This document shows, one piece after another, positions 11,856 through 63,478 of a DNA stretch of 64,000 nucleotides. The first letter of the stretch is position 1. Every line of letters starts with the position of its first letter. Location of the stretch: positions 1,496-65,495 of the forward strand of contig JACPND010000033.1 in NCBI GenBank assembly GCA_016185625.1. The letters are read 5' to 3'. The position numbers and the translations under genes were made by a program. The notes beneath the pieces were generated by a model. That model ran no database searches, had not been told where the DNA came from, and was given only the letters and a program-made list of their open reading frames with translations. The DNA comes from Candidatus Woesearchaeota archaeon (GTDB taxonomy: Archaea; Nanobdellota; Nanobdellia; Woesearchaeales; GW2011-AR9).

Positions 11856-13241
11856 TCAGAACCCTTCAATCTCCATTTCGATCAATCTGTTTAACTCCAC
11901 GGCATATTCCAGCGGCAGCGCTTTGACAATCGGCTCAATGAATCCGTTGACGATCGTGCGCATGGCCTGCTCTTCCGTCAAGCCGCGGCTCATCAGGTAA
12001 TAGATCTGCTCTTCACCAATTCGACCGACGGAAGCTTCATGTGCAACTTTAACGTCGTTATGATCAATTTTCATGTAAGGATATGTTTTGGATATTGATT
12101 CTTTATCCAGCAGGAGTGCATCACATTGGACATGGGAGATCGTATTTTTTGCGCCGGAGGTAACCCGGACCAGTCCTCGATAAATAGATTTTCCGCCGTT
12201 TTTACTGATGCTCTTCGCCTGGATCACCGAACTAGTGTTGGGCGCGACGTGGATGACTTTTGAGCCGGTATCCTGCTCTTGTCCTGTTCCGGCAAAGGCA
12301 ATGCCTAAACTTTCAGAGCGCGCACCCTCGCCGATGAGGACGGAACAGGGATAGAGCATTGTGCATGCAGATCCCATATTGCCATTTAACCAGCGCACCG
12401 TTGCGTTCTTATGCACAATCGCGCGTTTGGTGTTTAAATTATAGACATTCTTGCTCCAGTTCTCGATGCTGGAGTAGGTCATTTTTGCGCCTGGCAGCAC
12501 GTGCAGTTCGACGCAGCCGGCATGCAGGGAATTGGTGCTGTATCTAGGCGAACTGCACCCCTCAATATAATGCAATTCCGCCCCTTCATCGACAATAATC
12601 AAAGTGTGTTCGAACTGTCCGCCTTTCTGCGCATTCATGCGGAAATAGGCCTGTAGGGGGAGTTCTACTTTTACGCCATTAGGAACATAAATAAACGTAC
12701 CGCCGCTCCAGACTGCGGCATGCAGCATGATGAATTTATGGTCGTTGACCGGAATGCAGGAAGTCATGAAATATTTTTTCACCAGCTCTGGATATTTCTG
12801 CACCGCCACATCCATGTTTTCAAAGATGACGCCTTTTTCTTTCAGTGATTTTTCGATATTGTGATACACCACGCTGGAATCATACTGCGCTCCGACGCCA
12901 GAGAGAACTTTTTTTTCTGCTTCGGGAAGGCCCAGCCGGTCAAATGTTTTTTTTATTTCTGCCGGAACTTCGTCCCAGTTGCTGGTTTCTGTGGCATTGG
13001 GATCAATATAATAAATAATATGGCGTAAATCTAAGTCAGAGAGATCCGGTCCCCATGTAGGGATTGGTGTTTCGAGAAAGTATTTGAGCCCGAGCAATCG
13101 CTTCTGGAGCATCCAGTCCGGCTCATTCTTGGATTTGGAGATTAACTGCACGATCTCTTCATTTATTCCTGGTTTCGCGGTAAACCTGGCTTGATGGACA
13201 TCAGCCTCTTCGAGCAGGACACGAGCCATGGCTTCCGTCAT
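11856..13241 (-). CDS. sufB: Fe-S cluster assembly protein SufB
   Basis: SufB hallmark blocks (HVAPNTSSVIQAKSI, CDALLLD, YYLMSRGLTEEQAMRTIVNGF). Confidence 0.95.
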   Translation of the reverse strand: MTEAMARVLLEEADVHQARFTAKPGINEEIVQLISKSKNEPDWMLQKRLLGLKYFLETPIPTWGPDLSDLDLRHIIYYIDPNATETSNWDEVPAEIKKTFDRLGLPEAEKKVLSGVGAQYDSSVVYHNIEKSLKEKGVIFENMDVAVQKYPELVKKYFMTSCIPVNDHKFIMLHAAVWSGGTFIYVPNGVKVELPLQAYFRMNAQKGGQFEHTLIIVDEGAELHYIEGCSSPRYSTNSLHAGCVELHVLPGAKMTYSSIENWSKNVYNLNTKRAIVHKNATVRWLNGNMGSACTMLYPCSVLIGEGARSESLGIAFAGTGQEQDTGSKVIHVAPNTSSVIQAKSISKNGGKSIYRGLVRVTSGAKNTISHVQCDALLLDKESISKTYPYMKIDHNDVKVAHEASVGRIGEEQIYYLMSRGLTEEQAMRTIVNGFIEPIVKALPLEYAVELNRLIEMEIEGF

Positions 13242-13639
13242 GAGCAGCTCCGAATAGGGATCAGTGGTTGATGGCAGCCGACAAGCTTAGGATCGCAGCC
13301 GGAAGGAAGATCAGAAAATAATTTGTGGATTTGGCAGAGGGCATTGGTATTGCGGATAAATCGCAGCAGGCGCTGGGTTTCTTTTAGGTAACTTAAACGG
13401 TCGGTAACGAGAGCTGCGGATTTCTTTATTTCGGCAAGGGTCTGTTCATCGAAATCAATCTGGCTTCCCCGCTTATTGCTGGTGTATTGGCTGATGGCAG
13501 ACGTATTGATCATCAGCAATGAAGCGATATCTTTCTGCTTCAGGCCTCGTTCTTTCAGCCCTAGAGCGATATGTCTACGTAACGAGGGGATGACGTAAAA
13601 CGTCTCGATTTCCTGAGGCAGGAGGAGTTTCTTAACCAT
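13238..13639 (-). CDS. HTH transcriptional regulator with C-terminal Cys cluster, first gene of suf operon
   Basis: HTH (QKDIASLLMINTSAISQYT) followed by C..H...C....C.H Cys/His-rich tail; overlaps sufB start by 4 bp. Confidence 0.5.
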   Translation of the reverse strand: MVKKLLLPQEIETFYVIPSLRRHIALGLKERGLKQKDIASLLMINTSAISQYTSNKRGSQIDFDEQTLAEIKKSAALVTDRLSYLKETQRLLRFIRNTNALCQIHKLFSDLPSGCDPKLVGCHQPLIPIRSCS

Positions 13640-13772
13640 AGTTAACTTTTGGGAGGGGTTATTTATAAATGTTGTGATGTTCTATACTCAGCCTATTATG
13701 CTACTGTACAGAAGAGAAAACTATTCTTTCTTGTGCCAGCGAGAGAGTTTCATAGTAGCTTTTTGCTGACTC

Positions 13773-15593
13773 TTACTCTAACCTATAGAAAATATCCTCC
13801 GTCGGATGCCTGTACAACGGCTCTTTCAGTCTCTTCTGATCTAAAATATGCCCGATAAGGCCAATACTTCGAGCTAACCCAAACAGCCCATTCATGTACC
13901 CGATTTCAATCATCTCATTTATTTCCTCAGCATTGAATTGTCCGCAGGAAACTAACGCATCGACAAACAACGCCCCGAGGCATCCATCTACATTCAAAAT
14001 TAGGTTCTCTGCTTTCTGGGTGGTTATTTTTTCTACTTTTAGAGCATAGTTAAGGTATTCAGTATTCGGCAAATTCTTTCTGGCAAAATCTTTCAACAAT
14101 TCTACCCTTTTATCCGGATTGCGCTTTGATTTGACCAGATGCCCTATCCCAGGAATAAGAATCCTTTTCTGTTTCATCTCTTCTACAAACTGCTCTGGCG
14201 AAATATTTTTATCAACAGCGTCCTTAAAATACCTGCTAGCGTCATCAATCGCTCCGCCAAAGCGAGGGCCAATGGTTAATAATCCTGAACATAACGCAGA
14301 AATAACATCTTTTCCTGCCCTGGCGGCGACAATGGCATTGTGCGCTCCACTCACCGCCGGGCCGTGGTCAGCGCAAAGAACCAGACATAACTCTAAAAAT
14401 TTGGAAAAATACGGCGGCAAGCTCTTCTTAAACCATAATAAGCCTATAACCTCGCCAAGAGAATAATTTTGTTTGATTATTGCACTCACCGGAATAGTTC
14501 CATACGTCGGCTCTTCACCGATGTCGGAAGAGATAGTCGTGGTGAAATGGGTGGCTTTGCGAATAAGCCCTCGTTTGAGCGCAATGTCAAAATCCAGCGG
14601 CAATGATGGCCGTTGAGATTCAGGTGCGGGGATAATTATTCCTTGTTGAACTAAATGCTGATATTGATGCGCAAGGGTCTTTTCCAAATCCTCAAACGAA
14701 GCAGGAACAAGTATGCCCGCTTCTCGAAGCGCTTTATTCTTCGCCGCAGCGCTTTCTTCTTCTTTTCCTGCTTTTGCACCCGCATGGCCAAACTGTACTT
14801 CCCAGGGGAAGAGAGAGGCGCAAGTACCAGTAACCCACATGAGGATGGGCTTGGTGAGCTTGCCCGTTTTTTTCGCTTCGATGATCTCATATTCCTGTCT
14901 TCCGCCTAATTCTCCCAGTCCAACAATAAGTTTAATATCCAGATCGGCTTCAAAGCGTAACATGTGGTCGAGTAACGTCGAGCCGGGATAGAGATCTCCA
15001 CCAATGGCGATACCTTCTTTGATGCCATCTGTCGCACGGGCAAGGATATTAAATAATTCATTCATCATGCCTCCAGATTTCGAGACGAGGCCGACGCTTC
15101 CGGGGCGATATAATCTTGCGCGAAGTAGATTTTCCATTCCCCCCCCGGCATAACCGCCGATTCTGAAAGAACCGGCAGCAATCCCTCCTACTGTAGAAGG
15201 GCCAATGACCATTTTTTTTTCTTTTTGAGCAAGAGCGATGAGTTCTTTCGTCTCCCGTTCCGGCACGCCTTCAGCAACGATAACGGCCGTTTTTATTGAT
15301 GGGAATGATAAAGCTTCTTTTGACGAAGTGAAGGCTGATCGAAAAGAGGCAAAATTAATCAGGACGTCTGCCTGAGGATGTTTTTCTGCCGCTTCGGCGA
15401 AGGATTCGTAGACGGGGAGGGTTATTTCTTTTGCTCCAAAAAAGGCCTTATGAACTCCATTTCGTCCAGGATGGACAATCGCCGCGATGCTGGGAAGAGT
15501 TCTCTGGCAGACATAATCAAAGTCCAGCATCTGCTGGATGGGAAAAGCTTTGAGATTGTAGAAGATGGCTTGTGTCGTTTTCGTAAAGTTCAT
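13773..15593 (-). CDS. aclA: ATP-citrate lyase alpha subunit (CoA-binding, CoA-ligase and citryl-CoA lyase domains)
   Basis: Succinyl-CoA-synthetase-alpha-like region with phosphohistidine loop (GHAGA) and citrate-synthase-like C-terminus GHILDQKRLKEPLYRHPTEDIFY (matches human ACLY C-terminus). Confidence 0.9.
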   Translation of the reverse strand: MNFTKTTQAIFYNLKAFPIQQMLDFDYVCQRTLPSIAAIVHPGRNGVHKAFFGAKEITLPVYESFAEAAEKHPQADVLINFASFRSAFTSSKEALSFPSIKTAVIVAEGVPERETKELIALAQKEKKMVIGPSTVGGIAAGSFRIGGYAGGGMENLLRARLYRPGSVGLVSKSGGMMNELFNILARATDGIKEGIAIGGDLYPGSTLLDHMLRFEADLDIKLIVGLGELGGRQEYEIIEAKKTGKLTKPILMWVTGTCASLFPWEVQFGHAGAKAGKEEESAAAKNKALREAGILVPASFEDLEKTLAHQYQHLVQQGIIIPAPESQRPSLPLDFDIALKRGLIRKATHFTTTISSDIGEEPTYGTIPVSAIIKQNYSLGEVIGLLWFKKSLPPYFSKFLELCLVLCADHGPAVSGAHNAIVAARAGKDVISALCSGLLTIGPRFGGAIDDASRYFKDAVDKNISPEQFVEEMKQKRILIPGIGHLVKSKRNPDKRVELLKDFARKNLPNTEYLNYALKVEKITTQKAENLILNVDGCLGALFVDALVSCGQFNAEEINEMIEIGYMNGLFGLARSIGLIGHILDQKRLKEPLYRHPTEDIFYRLE

Positions 15594-16801
15594 GTAATCA
15601 CTTCCATGGCCTTGTCGACAATATCGACCATCGGCGTATCCGGGCCTTGCACAAGCATAGGGATCCCTATCTCTTTTCCTGCTTGTTCCATCAGTTTCAA
15701 TCCTTTCTCGTAATTCGGCCCGCCACGGCGGACAAAAATAGAGACTTTCCCCCAGTGTAATTTTTCTTGATATTCTCGAAGCGCTTGGATAATCCCCATG
15801 AATGTTTTTTCCACGTCAGTGAAATTGGCGATTGCTCCGCCGATAATCAGTACTTTTCCCCGCGGATGATACTCTTTGGTCACGAGCTCCAGAATAGTTT
15901 TGGCATACAGATAGGATTCTTCCGTGGTGGGGTTGCCGGAATATTCACCATAATTGGCAATTTCCTCCTGTCGCCCGAGATTGGCAATCGTGTCAAGAAA
16001 AATAATGCTCGCACCGCCTCCTGAGAGAATGTTCCAGATCCTTCCCTGAGGATTAAGAACGGTTAATTTGAGCGAGGCGCCGCTCTCGGCGTCCAGTTTG
16101 CGGATGAATTGCTCTTCAGGATAGACTTTTTGTCCGAAGGGAATGGGAAAATCAAAATCGCTCCAGAGCTTAGGACAGTCATCGACCTGGGCTACGCAGT
16201 CGAGAAGATGGATTTGATGGTTGTTATTAGAAACAGCGAAAGGATTTATTTCCAGATAGGTAAAATGAAAAGAGCGGTACAGTTTATACAGATTTTTGAA
16301 AAATGGAATATGGTGTTGTGGAATTATGGCGAAGTCAACCTCTTCTATGTTTACGCCAGAAGGTATTTTGATGGTCTTTACTGTATTCCATCGTTCTTCG
16401 ATGTTAAAACCACCAACTTCTGAAAAATAGATTATATCACTATCCCGTTCAGAGATGATCGCCAGGTAATATTCTTCCTGATGTGGAATAAATGGTTCGA
16501 GAAGGAAATGAGTAAGTGTGTCAGTCGCTTTGCCAAGGCTAATTAGTTTGTTTCGATGTTGTTCTAAAAATCTCAAAACTTCATCAAAACTCACCTCCGC
16601 CAAGACTAGATTATACTGTTTTCGCTTGCCGAAGAGCTGGTCTGGTTTAATCACTAGTTTTTCCCGGAGCAGCCAGGGATACAATGATGGCAATTCCTGA
16701 ATCTTTGTTTCAGGCGTGATGAGAACCGCTTTATACTCTAGGTTAAGCTGCCTGGCAATCAGGTTCTTGGCATCGAATTCTCGGATCTTGCGGCGGGCCA
16801 T
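15590..16801 (-). CDS. aclB: ATP-citrate lyase beta subunit (ATP-grasp/citrate-binding)
   Basis: Collinear with ACLY N-terminus: VIKPDQL, FLLEPFIPH, FTYLEINPF, GASLKLTVLNPQGRIWNILSGGGASIIFLDTI, LANYGEYSGNP, GKVLIIGGAIANFTDV, IFVRRGGPNY. Confidence 0.9.
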   Translation of the reverse strand: MARRKIREFDAKNLIARQLNLEYKAVLITPETKIQELPSLYPWLLREKLVIKPDQLFGKRKQYNLVLAEVSFDEVLRFLEQHRNKLISLGKATDTLTHFLLEPFIPHQEEYYLAIISERDSDIIYFSEVGGFNIEERWNTVKTIKIPSGVNIEEVDFAIIPQHHIPFFKNLYKLYRSFHFTYLEINPFAVSNNNHQIHLLDCVAQVDDCPKLWSDFDFPIPFGQKVYPEEQFIRKLDAESGASLKLTVLNPQGRIWNILSGGGASIIFLDTIANLGRQEEIANYGEYSGNPTTEESYLYAKTILELVTKEYHPRGKVLIIGGAIANFTDVEKTFMGIIQALREYQEKLHWGKVSIFVRRGGPNYEKGLKLMEQAGKEIGIPMLVQGPDTPMVDIVDKAMEVIT

Positions 16802-16925
16802 GGGAGATTTTAATGAGCTTTGTTTTAATCGATCCTGTTTTAAAAGCTTCTGAAGCTGGACGTCATTAAACTTTTAAGTAGTAACTGCACCGATGTTTAT
16901 AAAGATTCGCTAAAAGGGATAATGA

Positions 16926-17356
16926 TTAAATCCTCTCTCTTTTTGATTTATAATCCCTCTCTTTCTCCCTTCTTCTCGCTTCCTCTACAGAAGAGGTATA
17001 CACCTCCTCGCTGAGCCGAAACCATTCCAGACTTAATTGGTGCATCAGCGCCAGAAATTCATCAAAGGTGATGATCTTTTTCTTGACAGATTCCAGTAAA
17101 ATGTACACTGTGCCACACGGCTCCAGTCCCATTATTTTCGCCGCCAGGCGCGCAGATTTCTCCTCGAGTAAGACTGTGCGCCCTGTTCTTGTGCCAGCAG
17201 AATGACAGATTTTTCACCAACATCAAGATCAAAAGGTATCTTTATCTGTTTCTTTATCTCTTTGATTTTTATCCATCCTGCAAGGATTTCTCTCTCTACC
17301 AGAAAAGCATCGCTGTGGTTACGTTCTTTTCCTTTATCGACAACTTCCTCTTTCAC
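16926..17356 (-). pseudogene. PIN-domain (DUF3368-like VapC-type) gene, N-terminally truncated and frameshifted
   Basis: Two abutting ORFs; reading through in the alternate frame restores ...DVGEKSVILLAQEQG/RTVLLEEKSARLAAKIMGLEPCGTVYILLESVKKKIIT, the canonical PIN C-terminal half; no Met and no first-Asp block upstream. Confidence 0.5.
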
Positions 17357-17418: not shown

Positions 17419-17874
17419 ATGACCGTCTGTGAGCTCTGCGGCAAAGCGACTGAATTATTCGTTGCAGAGATTGAAAACGTTGATTTGAACGTGTGTTCCG
17501 GCTGTGCTAAATATGGAAAAATCAAGCGGAGGCTGAGCCATGAGCCAGTGTATACCCGGCCTAAAATCGTCCAAGAAAAGCCTGAATTCAAGATCATAGA
17601 TAATTTTTCTCAGCTTCTCCGCCAGGCACGGGAGAGAAGCGATCTGACACAGGAAGATTTTGCGAGATTTCTGCAGGTGAAAGAGAATGTCGTTTCCAAA
17701 TGGGAGCAGGGATCATTACGGCCGGATGTGGAGACGGCGGAACGTATAGGGAAGATTCTGAGAATCAATATGGTAGAGAAAGAAGAGAAAATCTCTGCAA
17801 CAACGGCATTAGAGAAGAAGAAAGGTGATGAATTGACGTTAGGAGATTTCGTGAAAGTGAGAAAACGCCATTAA
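17419..17874 (+). CDS. mbf1: archaeal multiprotein bridging factor 1 (Zn-ribbon + HTH_XRE)
   Basis: N-terminal CELCGK...CSGCAKYG zinc ribbon, C-terminal HTH (LTQEDFARFLQVKENVVSKWEQG). Confidence 0.8.
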   Translation: MTVCELCGKATELFVAEIENVDLNVCSGCAKYGKIKRRLSHEPVYTRPKIVQEKPEFKIIDNFSQLLRQARERSDLTQEDFARFLQVKENVVSKWEQGSLRPDVETAERIGKILRINMVEKEEKISATTALEKKKGDELTLGDFVKVRKRH

Positions 17875-43112: not shown

Positions 43113-43346
43113 TTATTCCTTCTTCTTTATCTGTATAATACTCACCGGACAGACATCTGCCGCTTCCTGATTTGATGCACGTTCAGCTTCCGTCTCAATA
43201 TCCCGTTCCCAATGGTCATCGACCTGTTTTGCGCCTTTGAGCTGCGCCAATCCCTGCTCTTCCATCTCCCAGAAATCAGGAGAGACGGCTGCACACGCGC
43301 CGCAGCTGATACAGTCTTTCTTAATGTGAACAATTGTGTGTGTCAT
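43113..43346 (-). CDS. small single-cluster 4Fe-4S ferredoxin
   Basis: CISCGACAAVSP ... CPVSII (Fer4_13-like). Confidence 0.7.
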   Translation of the reverse strand: MTHTIVHIKKDCISCGACAAVSPDFWEMEEQGLAQLKGAKQVDDHWERDIETEAERASNQEAADVCPVSIIQIKKKE

Positions 43347-60838: not shown

Positions 60839-63478
60839 TTAAATCTCCTTAATCTTCCTCAGCGTTTCTTCAAAGTATTTCTTCTTTTCTTTCAGCGCCG
60901 TGGGACTTCCGCCGCCATGCCAGGTAAAGCGCGGCCGGACTTGGATGGGAAACAGCCGTTCATTGGCATCGTCAAAGACAATCGCCGATCCGGTTACTTT
61001 GGGCAATTGATCTAATTCCTGATCTAATCCTTTGCGCATGTAACTTTGCATCAGCTGTCCCAGCGCTTCGACATCGAGACGTGCCGTCAGGCGGTGGGCA
61101 AGAACAATATCCGACTGTGTCATTACGTCAGTGTGGATTTTCCCGGGCTGCTGCGATGCCAAAATTAACGAAATGCCCGGCTGACGGCCTTCGCGTAAAA
61201 TGGTGACCAGCGCATCGGTGGCAGCAGTCTTCCCTTCTTTTGGCAAAAGTTCATGCGCTTCATCCAACCCCAGCCAGACCAATGGCTCTTCTAATTTTTC
61301 TTCTGTTTCTTTGGAAAAATAATGCAGCGCGGCATCGACAGTACGAAATTCTTCAGCTTTTCTTGCTACCATGCGTTGATTGAACAAGGAGCGGCAGATC
61401 AGGCCAACCACCAGCGCTTTGATGCTCCAGCCGGAGGCCATGACGGCATAGGGGCTTAAATCCAGCACCGTGACCTGCCCTGCGGAGATAATATCTTTTA
61501 ACGGCGTTCCTTGTTTGGAGAAAATTTCCCACTCGTGGGCTTTTTCAAACTGATTGACAACGATGCTCTTGACGACTTTGTCGCTTTCCGGATCGTTTTG
61601 AAATTCCCGGATCAACTGCTCGATTTCGTAACTGACGCCGGCTCGATTTAATCTCTGAACCACTTTTGTAATCAAGACGCCTTCGGCGGAATTGACATTG
61701 ATTTCAAAAGCATTGCACCAGTCTTCCGGATTGACATCGAGGGGTTGGATGGAGAAGGAGAAATCAGTAGGGATGCCTTCCTCTTTAAAGCGGTTGAAAA
61801 AGCCGGAGGGCGTGTAGATTTTCACAGCTAATGATTTGGGATCAAATCCCCATTGCTTGGCTAGTTCCGCATCCTGAAAGTTTGGATACTTCATCGTCCA
61901 ATAGATGCCCATAGTATCCAGAAGAACGATAGAAAGGTTTTGCTTGATTTCCGCAGGGAGATCGGATAATCCTTCAGCGATGGCGCCCAGCGAGTAGGAG
62001 TTGTGAACGATAATATCATTTGCAACAAAGTTATGTGTTTCTGGAACAGTTAAATCATAAACTTCAAATTCTCCTTCTAATAATTTCATAGAGGTGATTT
62101 CATCCCAAAAGATATCCGAACTGGCAAATTTGGAAAGCAAATCAGATTCATCGGCTAGGGCGACTTGTAGCAAGGTCTGCCGTGAAGGGGAATAATGAAT
62201 CCTTTCACGCATAGCTTTAGGATGTGCATAGCCTAATTTTCTACCAACTTCAGCCCAATTGTCTGGTCGATATAACTCCCAGATCTCTTTAGGAATAGTA
62301 TCAATGTTAGGATTTCTTTTAATGGATGGGGCTTCTTTAAGAGCAAAACAGGCCCGTTCTTCTTTTATTCCATAAAAACCAATTTCTTGTAAGTATTGGT
62401 TAACATTTTCATCATAAACTTCTAATTCATGAGACTTAAATATTTTTCCATTCAATTTAATGTTTTTATTTCTAATCTTTGAAAGAACTCCGAATCTTAA
62501 CAGTAGGTGTTGAACGCCATCAATAATTTCTTTTGAAGAAGAACAATAACTTACAAACCAATGTCCTGCTTTTTTATAAATCGTTCCGTCACATGAGAAT
62601 AACCGATTGAGGAACAGACTTAACTGATGTTTTGGCAATTGGAAGATCTCTTTTGGAATGAATTTTGTCAATGAATTTTTATTATACAAACCAAAACGCC
62701 CTATCCAGTTTCTAATGGAAGAATGAGCAAACTTGGGACCAGCATTAAATCTGCCTAAAACATCTTTTTTACTCTGCTCGGACATGACTTTTTTAATTTG
62801 ACTGACGCGGTAACAACCTTTTTTACCATGCAAATCAACTCTTAAATTAGAATCAAGATACGTTACAGACTGCTTGAATTCTTGCAATATCTTTTCATCC
62901 ATATTGGAAAAAAGCACAAAACCTTTACCTAAATGTCCCTCAGCAATCAAATAAGCTAATAATCTGATTTCATGTTCTGGCATAGAATTTTCCCCAAAAG
63001 CTTCTACTTTTCGTGGTGTCGCAATTCTAGAGCCGAAACCTAGTTTTCCGGCCGGAACCCATCCTTTTACAGTTAAAAGAGGGTGTTCTGATGTAAGTTT
63101 AATGGATCTTCCACTCCTTAAACCAATCTCGATAAGCCGGTTTACCGGTCTTTTGAAGAAGTTACTTTTCTGTCCTTGTTTAATCTTAAGATCTTCGTCA
63201 AGAGTAAAAATATCCTGATCATTATTCTCTAAATCTTTGATTTTAGCTACTGAACCATCATTGAGAGTTATGAGGGTGTCTCCGTGTAGACATTTCCCAC
63301 TTCCCCTTTTGCCGACAATAAACACCACGTGCGCACCAGCAATATCCATAAACACAGGATTGGAAAGAGATGTCGTCTGACCCATCTGGATATACTGCTT
63401 GCCGACGAGGATAGTTCCCTCTTTGCCGTATTTCTCAACGTCCTTCTTACTTCTCCCGATGATGACCTCAAAGACCAT
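60839..63478 (-). CDS. HerA/FtsK-superfamily (DUF87/AAA_10-type) P-loop ATPase interrupted by an intein
   Basis: Extein: Walker A VVFIVGKRGSGK|S (reconstituted), VLDLSPY, Walker B LVWLGLDEAHELL, REGRQPGISLILASQQPGKI...DIVLAHRL. Confidence 0.75.
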   Translation of the reverse strand: MVFEVIIGRSKKDVEKYGKEGTILVGKQYIQMGQTTSLSNPVFMDIAGAHVVFIVGKRGSGKCLHGDTLITLNDGSVAKIKDLENNDQDIFTLDEDLKIKQGQKSNFFKRPVNRLIEIGLRSGRSIKLTSEHPLLTVKGWVPAGKLGFGSRIATPRKVEAFGENSMPEHEIRLLAYLIAEGHLGKGFVLFSNMDEKILQEFKQSVTYLDSNLRVDLHGKKGCYRVSQIKKVMSEQSKKDVLGRFNAGPKFAHSSIRNWIGRFGLYNKNSLTKFIPKEIFQLPKHQLSLFLNRLFSCDGTIYKKAGHWFVSYCSSSKEIIDGVQHLLLRFGVLSKIRNKNIKLNGKIFKSHELEVYDENVNQYLQEIGFYGIKEERACFALKEAPSIKRNPNIDTIPKEIWELYRPDNWAEVGRKLGYAHPKAMRERIHYSPSRQTLLQVALADESDLLSKFASSDIFWDEITSMKLLEGEFEVYDLTVPETHNFVANDIIVHNSYSLGAIAEGLSDLPAEIKQNLSIVLLDTMGIYWTMKYPNFQDAELAKQWGFDPKSLAVKIYTPSGFFNRFKEEGIPTDFSFSIQPLDVNPEDWCNAFEINVNSAEGVLITKVVQRLNRAGVSYEIEQLIREFQNDPESDKVVKSIVVNQFEKAHEWEIFSKQGTPLKDIISAGQVTVLDLSPYAVMASGWSIKALVVGLICRSLFNQRMVARKAEEFRTVDAALHYFSKETEEKLEEPLVWLGLDEAHELLPKEGKTAATDALVTILREGRQPGISLILASQQPGKIHTDVMTQSDIVLAHRLTARLDVEALGQLMQSYMRKGLDQELDQLPKVTGSAIVFDDANERLFPIQVRPRFTWHGGGSPTALKEKKKYFEETLRKIKEI
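62000..63292 (-). other. intein (431 aa) with LAGLIDADG homing-endonuclease domain inside the Walker A motif
   Basis: Starts CLHGDTLITLNDGS right after GSGK; LAGLIDADG-like blocks LLAYLIAEGHLGKG and LNRLFSCDGTIYKK; ends ...NDIIVHN followed by +1 Ser (SYSLGAI). Confidence 0.75.

What the first reader, a model, noticed from the sequence alone, without database searches (positions are those of the whole stretch)
13773..16801. Complete two-subunit ATP-citrate lyase (aclB-aclA) in an archaeal-type context, adjacent to the suf operon
The two ORFs are collinear with the N- and C-terminal halves of eukaryotic ACLY, including GHILDQKRLKEPLYRHP at the C-terminus. The genes overlap by 4 bp (aclB first). 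ACL is the hallmark of the reductive TCA cycle or of cytosolic acetyl-CoA supply, and is sporadic in archaea.
Basis: partly seen in the sequence, partly recalled or inferred. Interest (0 to 1): 0.5.

Follow-up and report, generated by a model that had tools for sequence, protein, structure and literature searches.

The report
ATP-citrate lyase operon in a Woesearchaeon
The two genes really do encode a complete, apparently functional two-subunit ATP-citrate lyase, but it sits in a small-genome DPANN archaeon (Woesearchaeota) where such genes are already catalogued, so it is a correct but largely ordinary finding.

Summary
aclB (15590..16801, −, 403 aa) and aclA (13773..15593, −, 606 aa) overlap by the 4 bases ATGA. 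They are collinear with human ACLY residues 28-419 and 493-1095.

All four ACL domains are present, and every catalytic or ligand residue checked is conserved except one peripheral CoA contact (human R976 is L486 here).

The contig is a public "Candidatus Woesearchaeota archaeon" MAG. NCBI already names AclA "ATP citrate synthase" and AclB only "ATPase".

AclA nests in a DPANN clade (bootstrap 100/100). Its nearest outside relatives are plant ACLB (59-61% identity) and Methanosaeta concilii ACLY (59%). This agrees with a published report that eukaryotic ACLA/B branch with DPANN.

The suf adjacency is incidental. Relatives instead keep MBF1, then aclBA, then an AglB glycosylation cluster, and aclBA has its own conserved BRE/TATA-like promoter.

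No rTCA partner lies in the 64 kb. Published Woesearchaeal genomes lack the TCA cycle and citrate synthase. The likeliest role is cleavage of acquired citrate to acetyl-CoA plus oxaloacetate, not autotrophy. Interest is low to moderate.

The parts
15590..16801 (-). aclB: ACL small subunit (403 aa), ATP-grasp domain plus citrate-binding domain
   Evidence: Pfam Citrate_synth_N (E 8e-56) and Citrate_bind (E 1e-74). Scores 408 bits to M. concilii ACLY-A 6hxi_A and 352 bits to human ACLY 28-419. Human K58, R66, E118, N203, D216, G281-283, G309, A345-N346-F347-T348 and R379 are all conserved, as K52, R60, E110, N186, D201, G261-263, G289, A325-T328 and R359. NCBI MBI2669166.1 is annotated only 'ATPase'.
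13773..15593 (-). aclA: ACL large subunit (606 aa), CoA-ligase (succinyl-CoA-synthetase-alpha-like) module fused to the citrate-synthase-homology / citryl-CoA-lyase module
   Evidence: Pfam Ligase_CoA and Citrate_synt. Scores 780 bits to 6hxi_B and 724 bits to human ACLY 493-1095. Phospho-His H270 sits in QFGHAGA (human H760). E108 (E599), H410 (H900), H485 (H975), D536 (D1026) and R575 (R1065) are conserved; L486 replaces R976. 100% identical to NCBI 'ATP citrate synthase [Candidatus Woesearchaeota archaeon]'.
15590..15593 (-). ATGA stop/start overlap of aclB and aclA (probable translational coupling)
   Evidence: Sequence read directly. Coupling is inferred.
16837..16854 (-). BRE/TATA-like promoter element TTCAGAAGCTTTTAAAAC; its TATA core ends 37 nt upstream of the aclB ATG
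   Evidence: Sequence read. A similar element (TTCCAnAAcCTATTTAAAA) lies about 24 nt upstream of the aclB ATG in roughly 24 of 27 Woesearchaeal relatives. It is absent in the Bathyarchaeota and Thermoplasmata loci, where aclB follows idh. Promoter function is inferred, not shown.
13710..13720 (-). T-rich tract TTTTCTCTTCT 53 nt after the aclA stop codon: candidate archaeal terminator closing the aclBA unit
   Evidence: Sequence read. Function is inferred.
13660..13669 (-). TTTATAAATA box about 21 nt upstream of the HTH/suf operon start: the suf unit has its own promoter (context, not part of ACL)
   Evidence: Sequence read.
17419..17874 (+). Archaeal MBF1-type HTH gene (TIGR00270 family), divergent from aclBA. 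It is the one neighbour conserved with relatives (context).
   Evidence: Pfam HTH_3 and HTH_31. Named 'TIGR00270 family protein' in NCBI. Present next to aclB in 20 related loci.

Best explanation
The locus is a self-contained bicistronic operon encoding a genuine heteromeric ATP-citrate lyase (EC 2.3.3.8) of the archaeal/eukaryote-like clade, in the chromosome of a Woesearchaeota (DPANN) archaeon.

Enzyme mechanism, by homology to solved ACLs. The ATP-grasp domain of AclB binds Mg-ATP and phosphorylates His270 of AclA. The phosphate passes to citrate held by AclB N326, T328 and R359, forming citryl-phosphate. CoA attacks to give citryl-CoA. Citryl-CoA is then cleaved to acetyl-CoA and oxaloacetate with the help of E108 and the citrate-synthase-homology module (H410, D536, R575), which also forms the tetrameric core.

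Physiological role, inferred. This lineage lacks a TCA cycle, citrate synthase and a respiratory chain. The enzyme most likely cleaves citrate obtained from a host or the surroundings. That would give acetyl-CoA for isoprenoid lipids, acetylations, or ATP via acetate formation, plus oxaloacetate as a C4/C3 precursor. This is the job ACLY does in the eukaryotic cytosol, not CO2 fixation.

Shown: gene integrity, domain set, residue conservation, clade membership, independent promoter-like signal. Inferred: activity, direction of flux, source of citrate.
For: Identity. Graded similarity runs M. concilii ACLY, then human ACLY, then far lower Chlorobium ACL, then far lower still CCS/CCL/SCS. All checked catalytic and ligand residues are conserved in the window and in 20-29 relatives, using the residue roles described in PMC10115795.

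Host. AclA, AclB, SecY, SufB, L2, fibrillarin and CarS are all exact matches to one 69.5-kb NCBI Woesearchaeota contig. AclA nests in a Woesearchaeota plus Micrarchaeota clade with bootstrap 100. The MBF1-aclBA synteny is shared with 20 relatives. GC and GC3 are native: 0.44-0.46 and 0.44-0.47, against 0.46±0.04 and 0.50±0.07 for window genes.

Operon autonomy. A conserved BRE/TATA-like element, the ATGA overlap, a T-tract, and a separate TATA for suf.

Role. No aconitase, IDH, 2-oxoglutarate:ferredoxin oxidoreductase, fumarate reductase or citrate synthase was found among about 40 annotated window genes, nor within ±10 kb in about 30 Woesearchaeal loci. Published surveys report 'No oxidative pathways or TCA genes' in Woesearchaeota MAGs (PMC11606122). 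A preprint reports zero citrate synthase and zero electron transport chain in 446 Nanobdellota genomes (10.64898/2026.05.13.725050). The same citrate-scavenging role was proposed for the archaeal-like ACL of a Gracilibacterium (PMC6851277). The window encodes CDP-archaeol synthase and a CDP-alcohol phosphatidyltransferase, which hints at an acetyl-CoA demand for lipids.
Against: No citrate transporter was identified in the window. The rest of the genome could not be inspected, so partner enzymes (PFOR, ACD, malic enzyme/MDH, mevalonate pathway) are unverified for this organism. The ACL reaction is close to equilibrium (established thermodynamics), so gene content alone cannot fix the direction. 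The closest non-DPANN archaeal homologues, in Bathyarchaeota and Thermoplasmata, sit in aconitase-IDH-aclBA clusters, which shows the enzyme can be wired into a TCA branch. L486 replaces an otherwise DPANN-invariant Arg (human R976, a CoA contact), and its effect is unknown. No expression or activity data exist.
Confidence: 0.6

Rival explanations
1. ACL runs in the citrate-forming direction (acetyl-CoA + oxaloacetate + ADP + Pi gives citrate + ATP + CoA). It would replace the missing citrate synthase, either to feed a short oxidative branch to 2-oxoglutarate/glutamate or to conserve thioester energy as ATP. The precedent, recalled from memory, is Desulfobacter postgatei (Moeller et al. 1987).
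For: Nanobdellota genomes reportedly have no citrate synthase. The reaction is near equilibrium (established thermodynamics). Bathyarchaeota and Thermoplasmata homologues are clustered with aconitase and IDH, which suits a citrate to 2-oxoglutarate branch as well as its reverse. Human ACLY can form citryl-CoA from acetyl-CoA plus oxaloacetate (PMC10115795).
Against: No aconitase or IDH lies near aclBA in any of about 30 Woesearchaeal loci or in the 64-kb window. Published Woesearchaeota reconstructions report no TCA genes. ATP yield would be no better than via ADP-forming acetyl-CoA synthetase, and it would consume oxaloacetate.
Confidence: 0.2
2. ACL is the citrate-cleaving step of a complete reductive TCA cycle, and the organism fixes CO2.
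For: ACL is the classical rTCA marker and is scored as a 'carbon fixation' gene in DPANN surveys. A ferredoxin gene is in the window (43113..43346).
Against: No other rTCA enzyme is in the window or the conserved neighbourhoods. Woesearchaeales lack the TCA cycle and respiratory chain in published complete genomes. The protein is only about 40% identical to the Chlorobium-type rTCA enzyme, against 59-61% to plant cytosolic ACLB. A DPANN study itself judged the cycle incomplete.
Confidence: 0.05
3. The genes are not a true ACL but a citryl-CoA synthetase/lyase or succinyl-CoA synthetase paralogue, or a decaying or contaminant copy.
For: NCBIfam has no ACL model, and the best hits there are sub-threshold SCS and citryl-CoA lyase models. 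NCBI calls AclB only 'ATPase'.
Against: The fused Ligase_CoA plus citrate-synthase architecture and ACL-specific Pfam domains are present. Scores against ACL structures are 5- to 10-fold higher than against CCS/CCL/SCS. The ORFs are intact and all key residues are conserved. Composition is native, and synteny is shared with relatives. The same locus was recovered in three independent read-set assemblies.
Confidence: 0.02

Closest known systems
Methanosaeta (Methanothrix) concilii ACLY-A/B (PDB 6hxi, 6znw)
   Same: It is a two-subunit archaeal ACL with the same domain order. Identity is 59% for the large subunit, with E 1e-233 and 5e-121. All catalytic residues are shared.
   Different: It comes from a different phylum (a euryarchaeal methanogen). 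The window protein belongs to a separate, strongly supported DPANN clade. Human R976 is K in M. concilii and L here.
Plant heteromeric cytosolic ACL (Arabidopsis ACLA/ACLB; ACLB = P0289)
   Same: It is heteromeric and makes acetyl-CoA outside any TCA cycle. Plant ACLB is the nearest non-DPANN relative of the window AclA, at 59-61% identity. It groups beside the DPANN clade in my NJ tree, in line with PMC11976288.
   Different: The plant genes are eukaryotic nuclear genes and are unlinked. The sister relationship has only 36% bootstrap support here.
Human ACLY (single chain; PDB 6poe and others)
   Same: It is collinear: AclB matches residues 28-419 and AclA matches 493-1095, at 54% identity in the large part. 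Catalytic H760, E599, H900, D1026 and R1065 are identical.
   Different: The human enzyme is one polypeptide with a regulatory linker at about residues 420-492, which is absent here. R976 is replaced by Leu.
Chlorobium limicola AclAB (PDB 6hxj), the rTCA-type ACL
   Same: Same reaction and the same two-subunit architecture.
   Different: It is much more distant: 400 and 154 bits against 780 and 408, and about 40% identity to a Chlorobium-like representative. It works in a complete rTCA cycle, which this lineage lacks.
Gracilibacteria (CPR) two-subunit ACL (PMC6851277; loci L036, L037)
   Same: It is an ACL in an ultra-small, TCA-less, probably symbiotic organism, proposed to cleave scavenged citrate. 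It is described as archaeal-like.
   Different: It is bacterial, read with genetic code 25, and only 42-48% identical.
Hydrogenobacter citryl-CoA synthetase plus citryl-CoA lyase (PDB 6hxq, 6hxp)
   Same: Homologous modules, and together they carry out the same overall chemistry.
   Different: There are three separate proteins, and scores are only 58-74 bits. Here the small-subunit-like and lyase modules are fused in AclA.

Membership tests
ATP-citrate lyase (EC 2.3.3.8), heteromeric AclA/AclB type | Small subunit made of an ATP-grasp domain plus an ACL citrate-binding domain | tested here: met
   PF24948 (189 bits, cutoff 83) and PF16114 (250 bits, cutoff 26.8).
ATP-citrate lyase (EC 2.3.3.8), heteromeric AclA/AclB type | Large subunit with the CoA-ligase (SCS-alpha-like) module fused to a citrate-synthase-homology / citryl-CoA-lyase module in one chain | tested here: met
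   PF00549 at residues 170-294 and PF00285 at residues 377-595 in the same 606-aa ORF. It aligns end to end with 6hxi_B and human 493-1095.
ATP-citrate lyase (EC 2.3.3.8), heteromeric AclA/AclB type | Catalytic phospho-histidine in the GHAGA motif | tested here: met
   QFGHAGAKAG, with H270 equivalent to human H760. H is present in all 20 sampled DPANN relatives.
ATP-citrate lyase (EC 2.3.3.8), heteromeric AclA/AclB type | Citrate-binding residues (human G309, N346, T348, R379; F347) and ATP-grasp Mg/nucleotide residues (K58, E118, N203, D216). The residue list is partly from memory of the 3MWD and 3PFF papers. The homologous CCS citrate-site list is and F347 is. | tested here: met
   All are identical in the window protein, in M. 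concilii and in 29 relatives.
ATP-citrate lyase (EC 2.3.3.8), heteromeric AclA/AclB type | Residues for citryl-CoA cleavage and the CSH-module site (human E599, H900, D1026, R1065) | tested here: met
   E108, H410, D536 and R575. Their roles are described in PMC10115795.
ATP-citrate lyase (EC 2.3.3.8), heteromeric AclA/AclB type | Closer to characterised ACLs than to CCS/CCL or succinyl-CoA synthetase | tested here: met
   780, 724 and 400 bits to ACLs, against 97 bits or less to SCS and 74 and 65 bits to CCS and CCL. For AclB: 408, 352 and 154 bits against 58.
ATP-citrate lyase (EC 2.3.3.8), heteromeric AclA/AclB type | ATP- and CoA-dependent cleavage of citrate; A4B4 assembly | not testable with these tools
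   This needs enzyme assays and structural work. No structure prediction was run because a solved homologue at 59% identity exists.
Reductive TCA cycle (ACL variant) | Co-occurrence with 2-oxoglutarate:ferredoxin oxidoreductase, fumarate reductase, PFOR, aconitase, IDH, MDH, fumarase and SCS in the same genome | tested here: inconclusive
   None was found in the 64-kb window or within ±10 kb of aclBA in about 30 Woesearchaeal loci. The literature on the order reports that the TCA cycle is absent.
DPANN / eukaryote-like ACLA/B clade | Phylogenetic placement within DPANN sequences and next to eukaryotic heteromeric ACL | tested here: met
   The DPANN clade has bootstrap 100. The link to plants is supported by identity ranking (59-61%) but only weakly by NJ bootstrap (36%). 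It was published in PMC11976288.

The most novel reading that the evidence does not exclude
In Woesearchaeales, which reportedly have no citrate synthase, no TCA cycle and no respiratory chain, ACL could be the entry point of a host- or environment-derived citrate economy. Citrate would yield acetyl-CoA plus oxaloacetate, then acetate, CO2 and H2, with a net gain of one ATP per citrate. The DPANN enzyme would also be the true sister or donor of the eukaryotic heteromeric ACLA/B. On that reading, the 'export citrate, cleave it elsewhere' logic of eukaryotic cells first arose in symbiotic archaea.
Probability: 0.25. Interest if true: 0.6.

Novelty: already known. Interest (0 to 1): 0.25.

Why it matters
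As an annotation the finding is sound. It also corrects a gap in the public record, where AclB is named only "ATPase".

Biologically it adds one more example of ACL in an organism that cannot run a TCA cycle. That warns against using aclA/aclB as a stand-alone marker of rTCA autotrophy in metagenomes, as several surveys do.

This clade is also the closest prokaryotic relative of the plant-type heteromeric ACL, so it is relevant to the origin of cytosolic acetyl-CoA supply in eukaryotes. Both points are already in the literature. The open part is physiological: where the citrate comes from and in which direction the enzyme runs in DPANN cells.

Tried and rejected
- tRNA and Rfam scans of the window found nothing.
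- NCBIfam has no ACL model and returned only sub-threshold SCS and citryl-CoA-lyase hits, so it was not used for assignment.
- My first NJ tree was rooted on a 29%-identity outlier (P0235) and gave a distorted backbone. I redid it without that sequence and with verified plant sequences. Deep nodes remain weakly supported, so I make no claim beyond the DPANN clade and the identity ranking.
- Cluster look-ups named only 2 of 10 representatives usefully: a chytrid and a dinoflagellate.
- The aclA of L030 (a bin labelled Nomurabacteria) is interrupted by masked N and a frameshift, so I left it out.
- The Verschueren et al. 2019 paper and the supplement of PMC11976288 are not held.
- I considered a functional link between ACL and Fe-S assembly (suf) and rejected it. 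The adjacency occurs only in this genome, and the two units have separate promoter-like and terminator-like signals.
- I considered a functional link to the AglB/glycosyltransferase cluster that follows aclBA in about 20 relatives. Acetyl-CoA could feed dolichol or N-acetyl sugars there. I left it as speculation because the linkage is broken in the window genome and may be plain synteny.
- Recent horizontal acquisition is not supported by composition.
- I could not reach the rest of the MAG.
Full report
**1. Observation**

The ORF list shows two minus-strand ORFs at exactly the reported coordinates. One spans 15590..16801 (403 aa) and the other 13773..15593 (606 aa). The junction reads ...ACATGAACTTT..., so the TGA stop of the first gene and the ATG start of the second share the four bases 15590..15593.

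**2. What the proteins are**

- **Domains.** Pfam places an ACL-type ATP-grasp domain (PF24948) and the ACL citrate-binding domain (PF16114) in the 403-aa protein. It places a CoA-ligase domain (PF00549) followed by a citrate-synthase C-terminal domain (PF00285) in the 606-aa protein. This is the diagnostic heteromeric ACL architecture. In the citryl-CoA synthetase/lyase system the last two modules are separate proteins.
- **Similarity to solved structures.**

| Solved structure | Small subunit (bits) | Large subunit (bits) |
|---|---|---|
| M. concilii ACLY, 6hxi (best match) | 408 | 780 |
| Human ACLY (residues 28-419 / 493-1095) | 349-352 | 724 |
| Chlorobium ACL, 6hxj | 154 | 400 |
| Hydrogenobacter CCS | 58 | 74 |
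| Hydrogenobacter CCL | – | 65 |
| Succinyl-CoA synthetases | – | 97 or less |

- **NCBIfam.** It has no ACL model and gave only sub-threshold SCS and CCL hits.
- **Large-subunit residues.** I mapped residues whose roles are described for human ACLY in PMC10115795.
  - H760 (phospho-histidine) is H270.
  - E599 is E108.
  - H900 is H410.
  - D1026 is D536.
  - R1065 is R575.
  - All five are conserved in 20 sampled DPANN relatives.
  - R976 is the only difference. It is a contact for 'non-productive' CoA and is Leu486 here. It is Arg in all 20 relatives, Lys in M. concilii, and variable elsewhere.
- **Small-subunit residues.** The ATP-grasp and Mg residues and the citrate-site residues G309, A345-N346-F347-T348 and R379 are identical in the window protein, in M. 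concilii and in 29 relatives. Part of that residue list rests on my memory of the 3MWD and 3PFF papers. The homologous citrate site is listed.
- **Conclusion.** This is an intact, apparently functional ACL.

**3. Whose genome**

- AclA is 100% identical to an NCBI protein 'ATP citrate synthase [Candidatus Woesearchaeota archaeon]' on a 69.5-kb contig.
- AclB, SecY, SufB, L2, fibrillarin, MBF1 and CDP-archaeol synthase from across the window are exact matches to the same contig. AclB is annotated only as 'ATPase'.
- The rest of the window is typically archaeal. It holds the ribosomal-protein/SecY block, S8e, Nop5, fibrillarin, Cbf5-like TruB, diphthamide synthesis and CarS.
- GC and GC3 of aclBA lie within one standard deviation of the other window genes. 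Nothing suggests a recent transfer or a chimeric contig.
- The locus also appears in three independent read-set assemblies.

**4. Relatives and phylogeny**

- Public data hold thousands of homologues. The top 120 are 62-76% identical two-subunit proteins, and those with names come from Woesearchaeota, Nanoarchaeota or Micrarchaeota.
- In species-representative genomes the best matches are 65-74% identical MAGs labelled Woesearchaeota, Nanoarchaeota or Nanoarchaeia. Fourteen others are labelled 'uncultured Methanosarcinales', but they share the Woesearchaeal synteny and are probably mislabelled. Further out are Bathyarchaeota (58%), Thermoplasmata (57%) and code-25 CPR bacteria (42-48%).
- I built an NJ tree of 86 large-subunit sequences over 591 columns with 100 bootstraps. 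It places the window protein inside a DPANN clade (Woesearchaeota plus Micrarchaeota) with 100% support.
- Outside that clade, identity to the window AclA ranks as follows:

| Relative | Identity |
|---|---|
| Plant ACLB (verified database sequences) | 59-61% |
| M. concilii | 59% |
| Bathyarchaeota / Thermoplasmata | 57-58% |
| Human and chytrid ACLY | 54% |
| Chlorobium-like representative | about 40% |

- The plant group joins the DPANN clade in the tree, but with only 36% support. I treat this as consistent with the published statement that eukaryotic ACLA/B branch with DPANN (PMC11976288), not as independent proof of it.

**5. Operon anatomy and neighbourhood**

- **Promoter-like signal.** Upstream of aclB lies TTCAGAAGCTTTTAAAAC (16854..16837). 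Its TATA-like core ends 37 nt before the ATG. A very similar BRE/TATA-like element (TTCCAnAAcCTATTTAAAA) sits about 24 nt upstream of aclB in roughly 24 of 27 Woesearchaeal loci. It is missing in the Bathyarchaeota and Thermoplasmata loci, where aclB follows another gene.
- **End of the unit.** After the aclA stop there is a T-rich tract (13720..13710). A separate TTTATAAATA box (13669..13660) then precedes the HTH gene that heads the suf operon.
- **Inference.** aclBA is thus an autonomous, probably translationally coupled bicistronic unit. All of these functions are inferred.
- **Comparison of 38 loci.**
  - The suf neighbour occurs only in this genome.
  - Relatives conserve a divergent MBF1-type gene upstream, which the window also has at 17419..17874.
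  - Downstream they conserve an STT3/AglB oligosaccharyltransferase, a GT2, DUF2304 and GT4 genes.
  - No metabolic partner is linked in Woesearchaeota.
  - In contrast, the Bathyarchaeota and Thermoplasmata loci have aconitase-IDH-aclB-aclA clusters.

**6. Likely role**

- **Evidence against an rTCA role.**
  - About 40 annotated window genes include no TCA or rTCA enzyme and no recognisable citrate carrier.
  - One study found 'No oxidative pathways or TCA genes' in Woesearchaeota MAGs, while listing aclA/aclB among its mapped genes (PMC11606122).
  - A 2026 preprint on 208 complete plus 238 draft Nanobdellota genomes reports no citrate synthase and no electron transport chain anywhere in the phylum.
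  - A hydrothermal DPANN survey found ACL in a few MAGs but judged the cycle incomplete.
[quoted passage not shown] The same role was proposed for the archaeal-like ACL of a TCA-less Gracilibacterium (PMC6851277).
[quoted passage not shown] That is my inference.
- **A possible anabolic sink.** The archaeal lipid genes in the window hint at a demand for acetyl-CoA.
- **Main rival.** The main rival is the reverse, citrate-forming direction. The reaction is near equilibrium and the phylum lacks citrate synthase. It lacks support from linked aconitase or IDH genes in this order.
- **Autotrophy.** Autotrophic rTCA is unlikely.
- **Limit.** The direction of flux cannot be settled without the full gene inventory or experiments.

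**7. Novelty**

The exact proteins are public and AclA is already correctly named. ACL in DPANN and its affinity to eukaryotic ACLA/B are published. I therefore rate the finding as already known and of low to moderate interest. The residual question is what a stand-alone ACL does in a TCA-less symbiont.

Noticed in passing
window 16926..17356 (−): Two small ORFs lie between MBF1 and aclB: 74 aa (GTG start) and 68 aa. They read like one DUF3368/PIN-like gene split by a frameshift, because a third frame reads LLEEKSARLAAKIMGLEP across the junction. The same split is present in three independent assemblies (L039-L041). It is probably a decaying toxin-like gene.
   Followed up: partly
window 60839..63478 (−): An 879-aa protein carries an intein (splicing domain plus LAGLIDADG endonuclease, residues about 70-493). 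The intein is inserted exactly in the Walker-A P-loop (GKRGSGK|C...HN|S) of a HerA/DUF87-like ATPase.
   Followed up: partly
window 13238..13639 (−): A 133-aa HTH protein with a Cys-rich C-terminal tail overlaps sufB by 4 bp and has its own TATA box. It is a candidate Fe-S-sensing regulator of an archaeal sufBDSUC operon.
   Followed up: no
proteins P0002-P0012 and P0080 (database hits, not in the window): These are AclA-like proteins of about 1,003-1,040 aa with a second, partial CoA-ligase plus citrate-synthase module in tandem and no citrate-binding domain. They group with chytrid and human ACLY in the NJ tree. Their source organisms are unnamed.
   Followed up: partly
L027 5463..11809 (Bathyarchaeota) and L028 4694..11058 (Thermoplasmata): These loci have an aconitase - isocitrate dehydrogenase - aclB - aclA gene cluster, a compact citrate/2-oxoglutarate module absent from the Woesearchaeal loci.
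   Followed up: partly
L036 10001..11764 and L037 1020..2831: The ACL large-subunit genes of these CPR bacteria are open only if TGA is read as Gly (code 25), with 18-28 in-frame TGA codons. L037 is labelled Peribacteria but behaves like a code-25 lineage.
   Followed up: partly
L001, L002, L004, L005, L013 and others (14 loci): These MAGs are labelled 'uncultured Methanosarcinales archaeon'. They carry ACL 66-74% identical to the window and the Woesearchaeal MBF1-aclBA-AglB synteny, so the taxonomic label is probably wrong.
   Followed up: partly
window 14137..14139 (AclA codon 486): Leu replaces an Arg (human R976, a CoA contact) that is invariant in 20 sampled DPANN relatives. The functional consequence is unknown.
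   Followed up: partly
about 20 of the 38 related loci L001-L038, downstream of aclA: An STT3/AglB oligosaccharyltransferase, GT2, DUF2304 and GT4 genes directly follow aclBA in these Woesearchaeal genomes. This could be plain synteny or a link between acetyl-CoA supply and glycan/dolichol synthesis. The linkage is broken in the window genome.
   Followed up: partly
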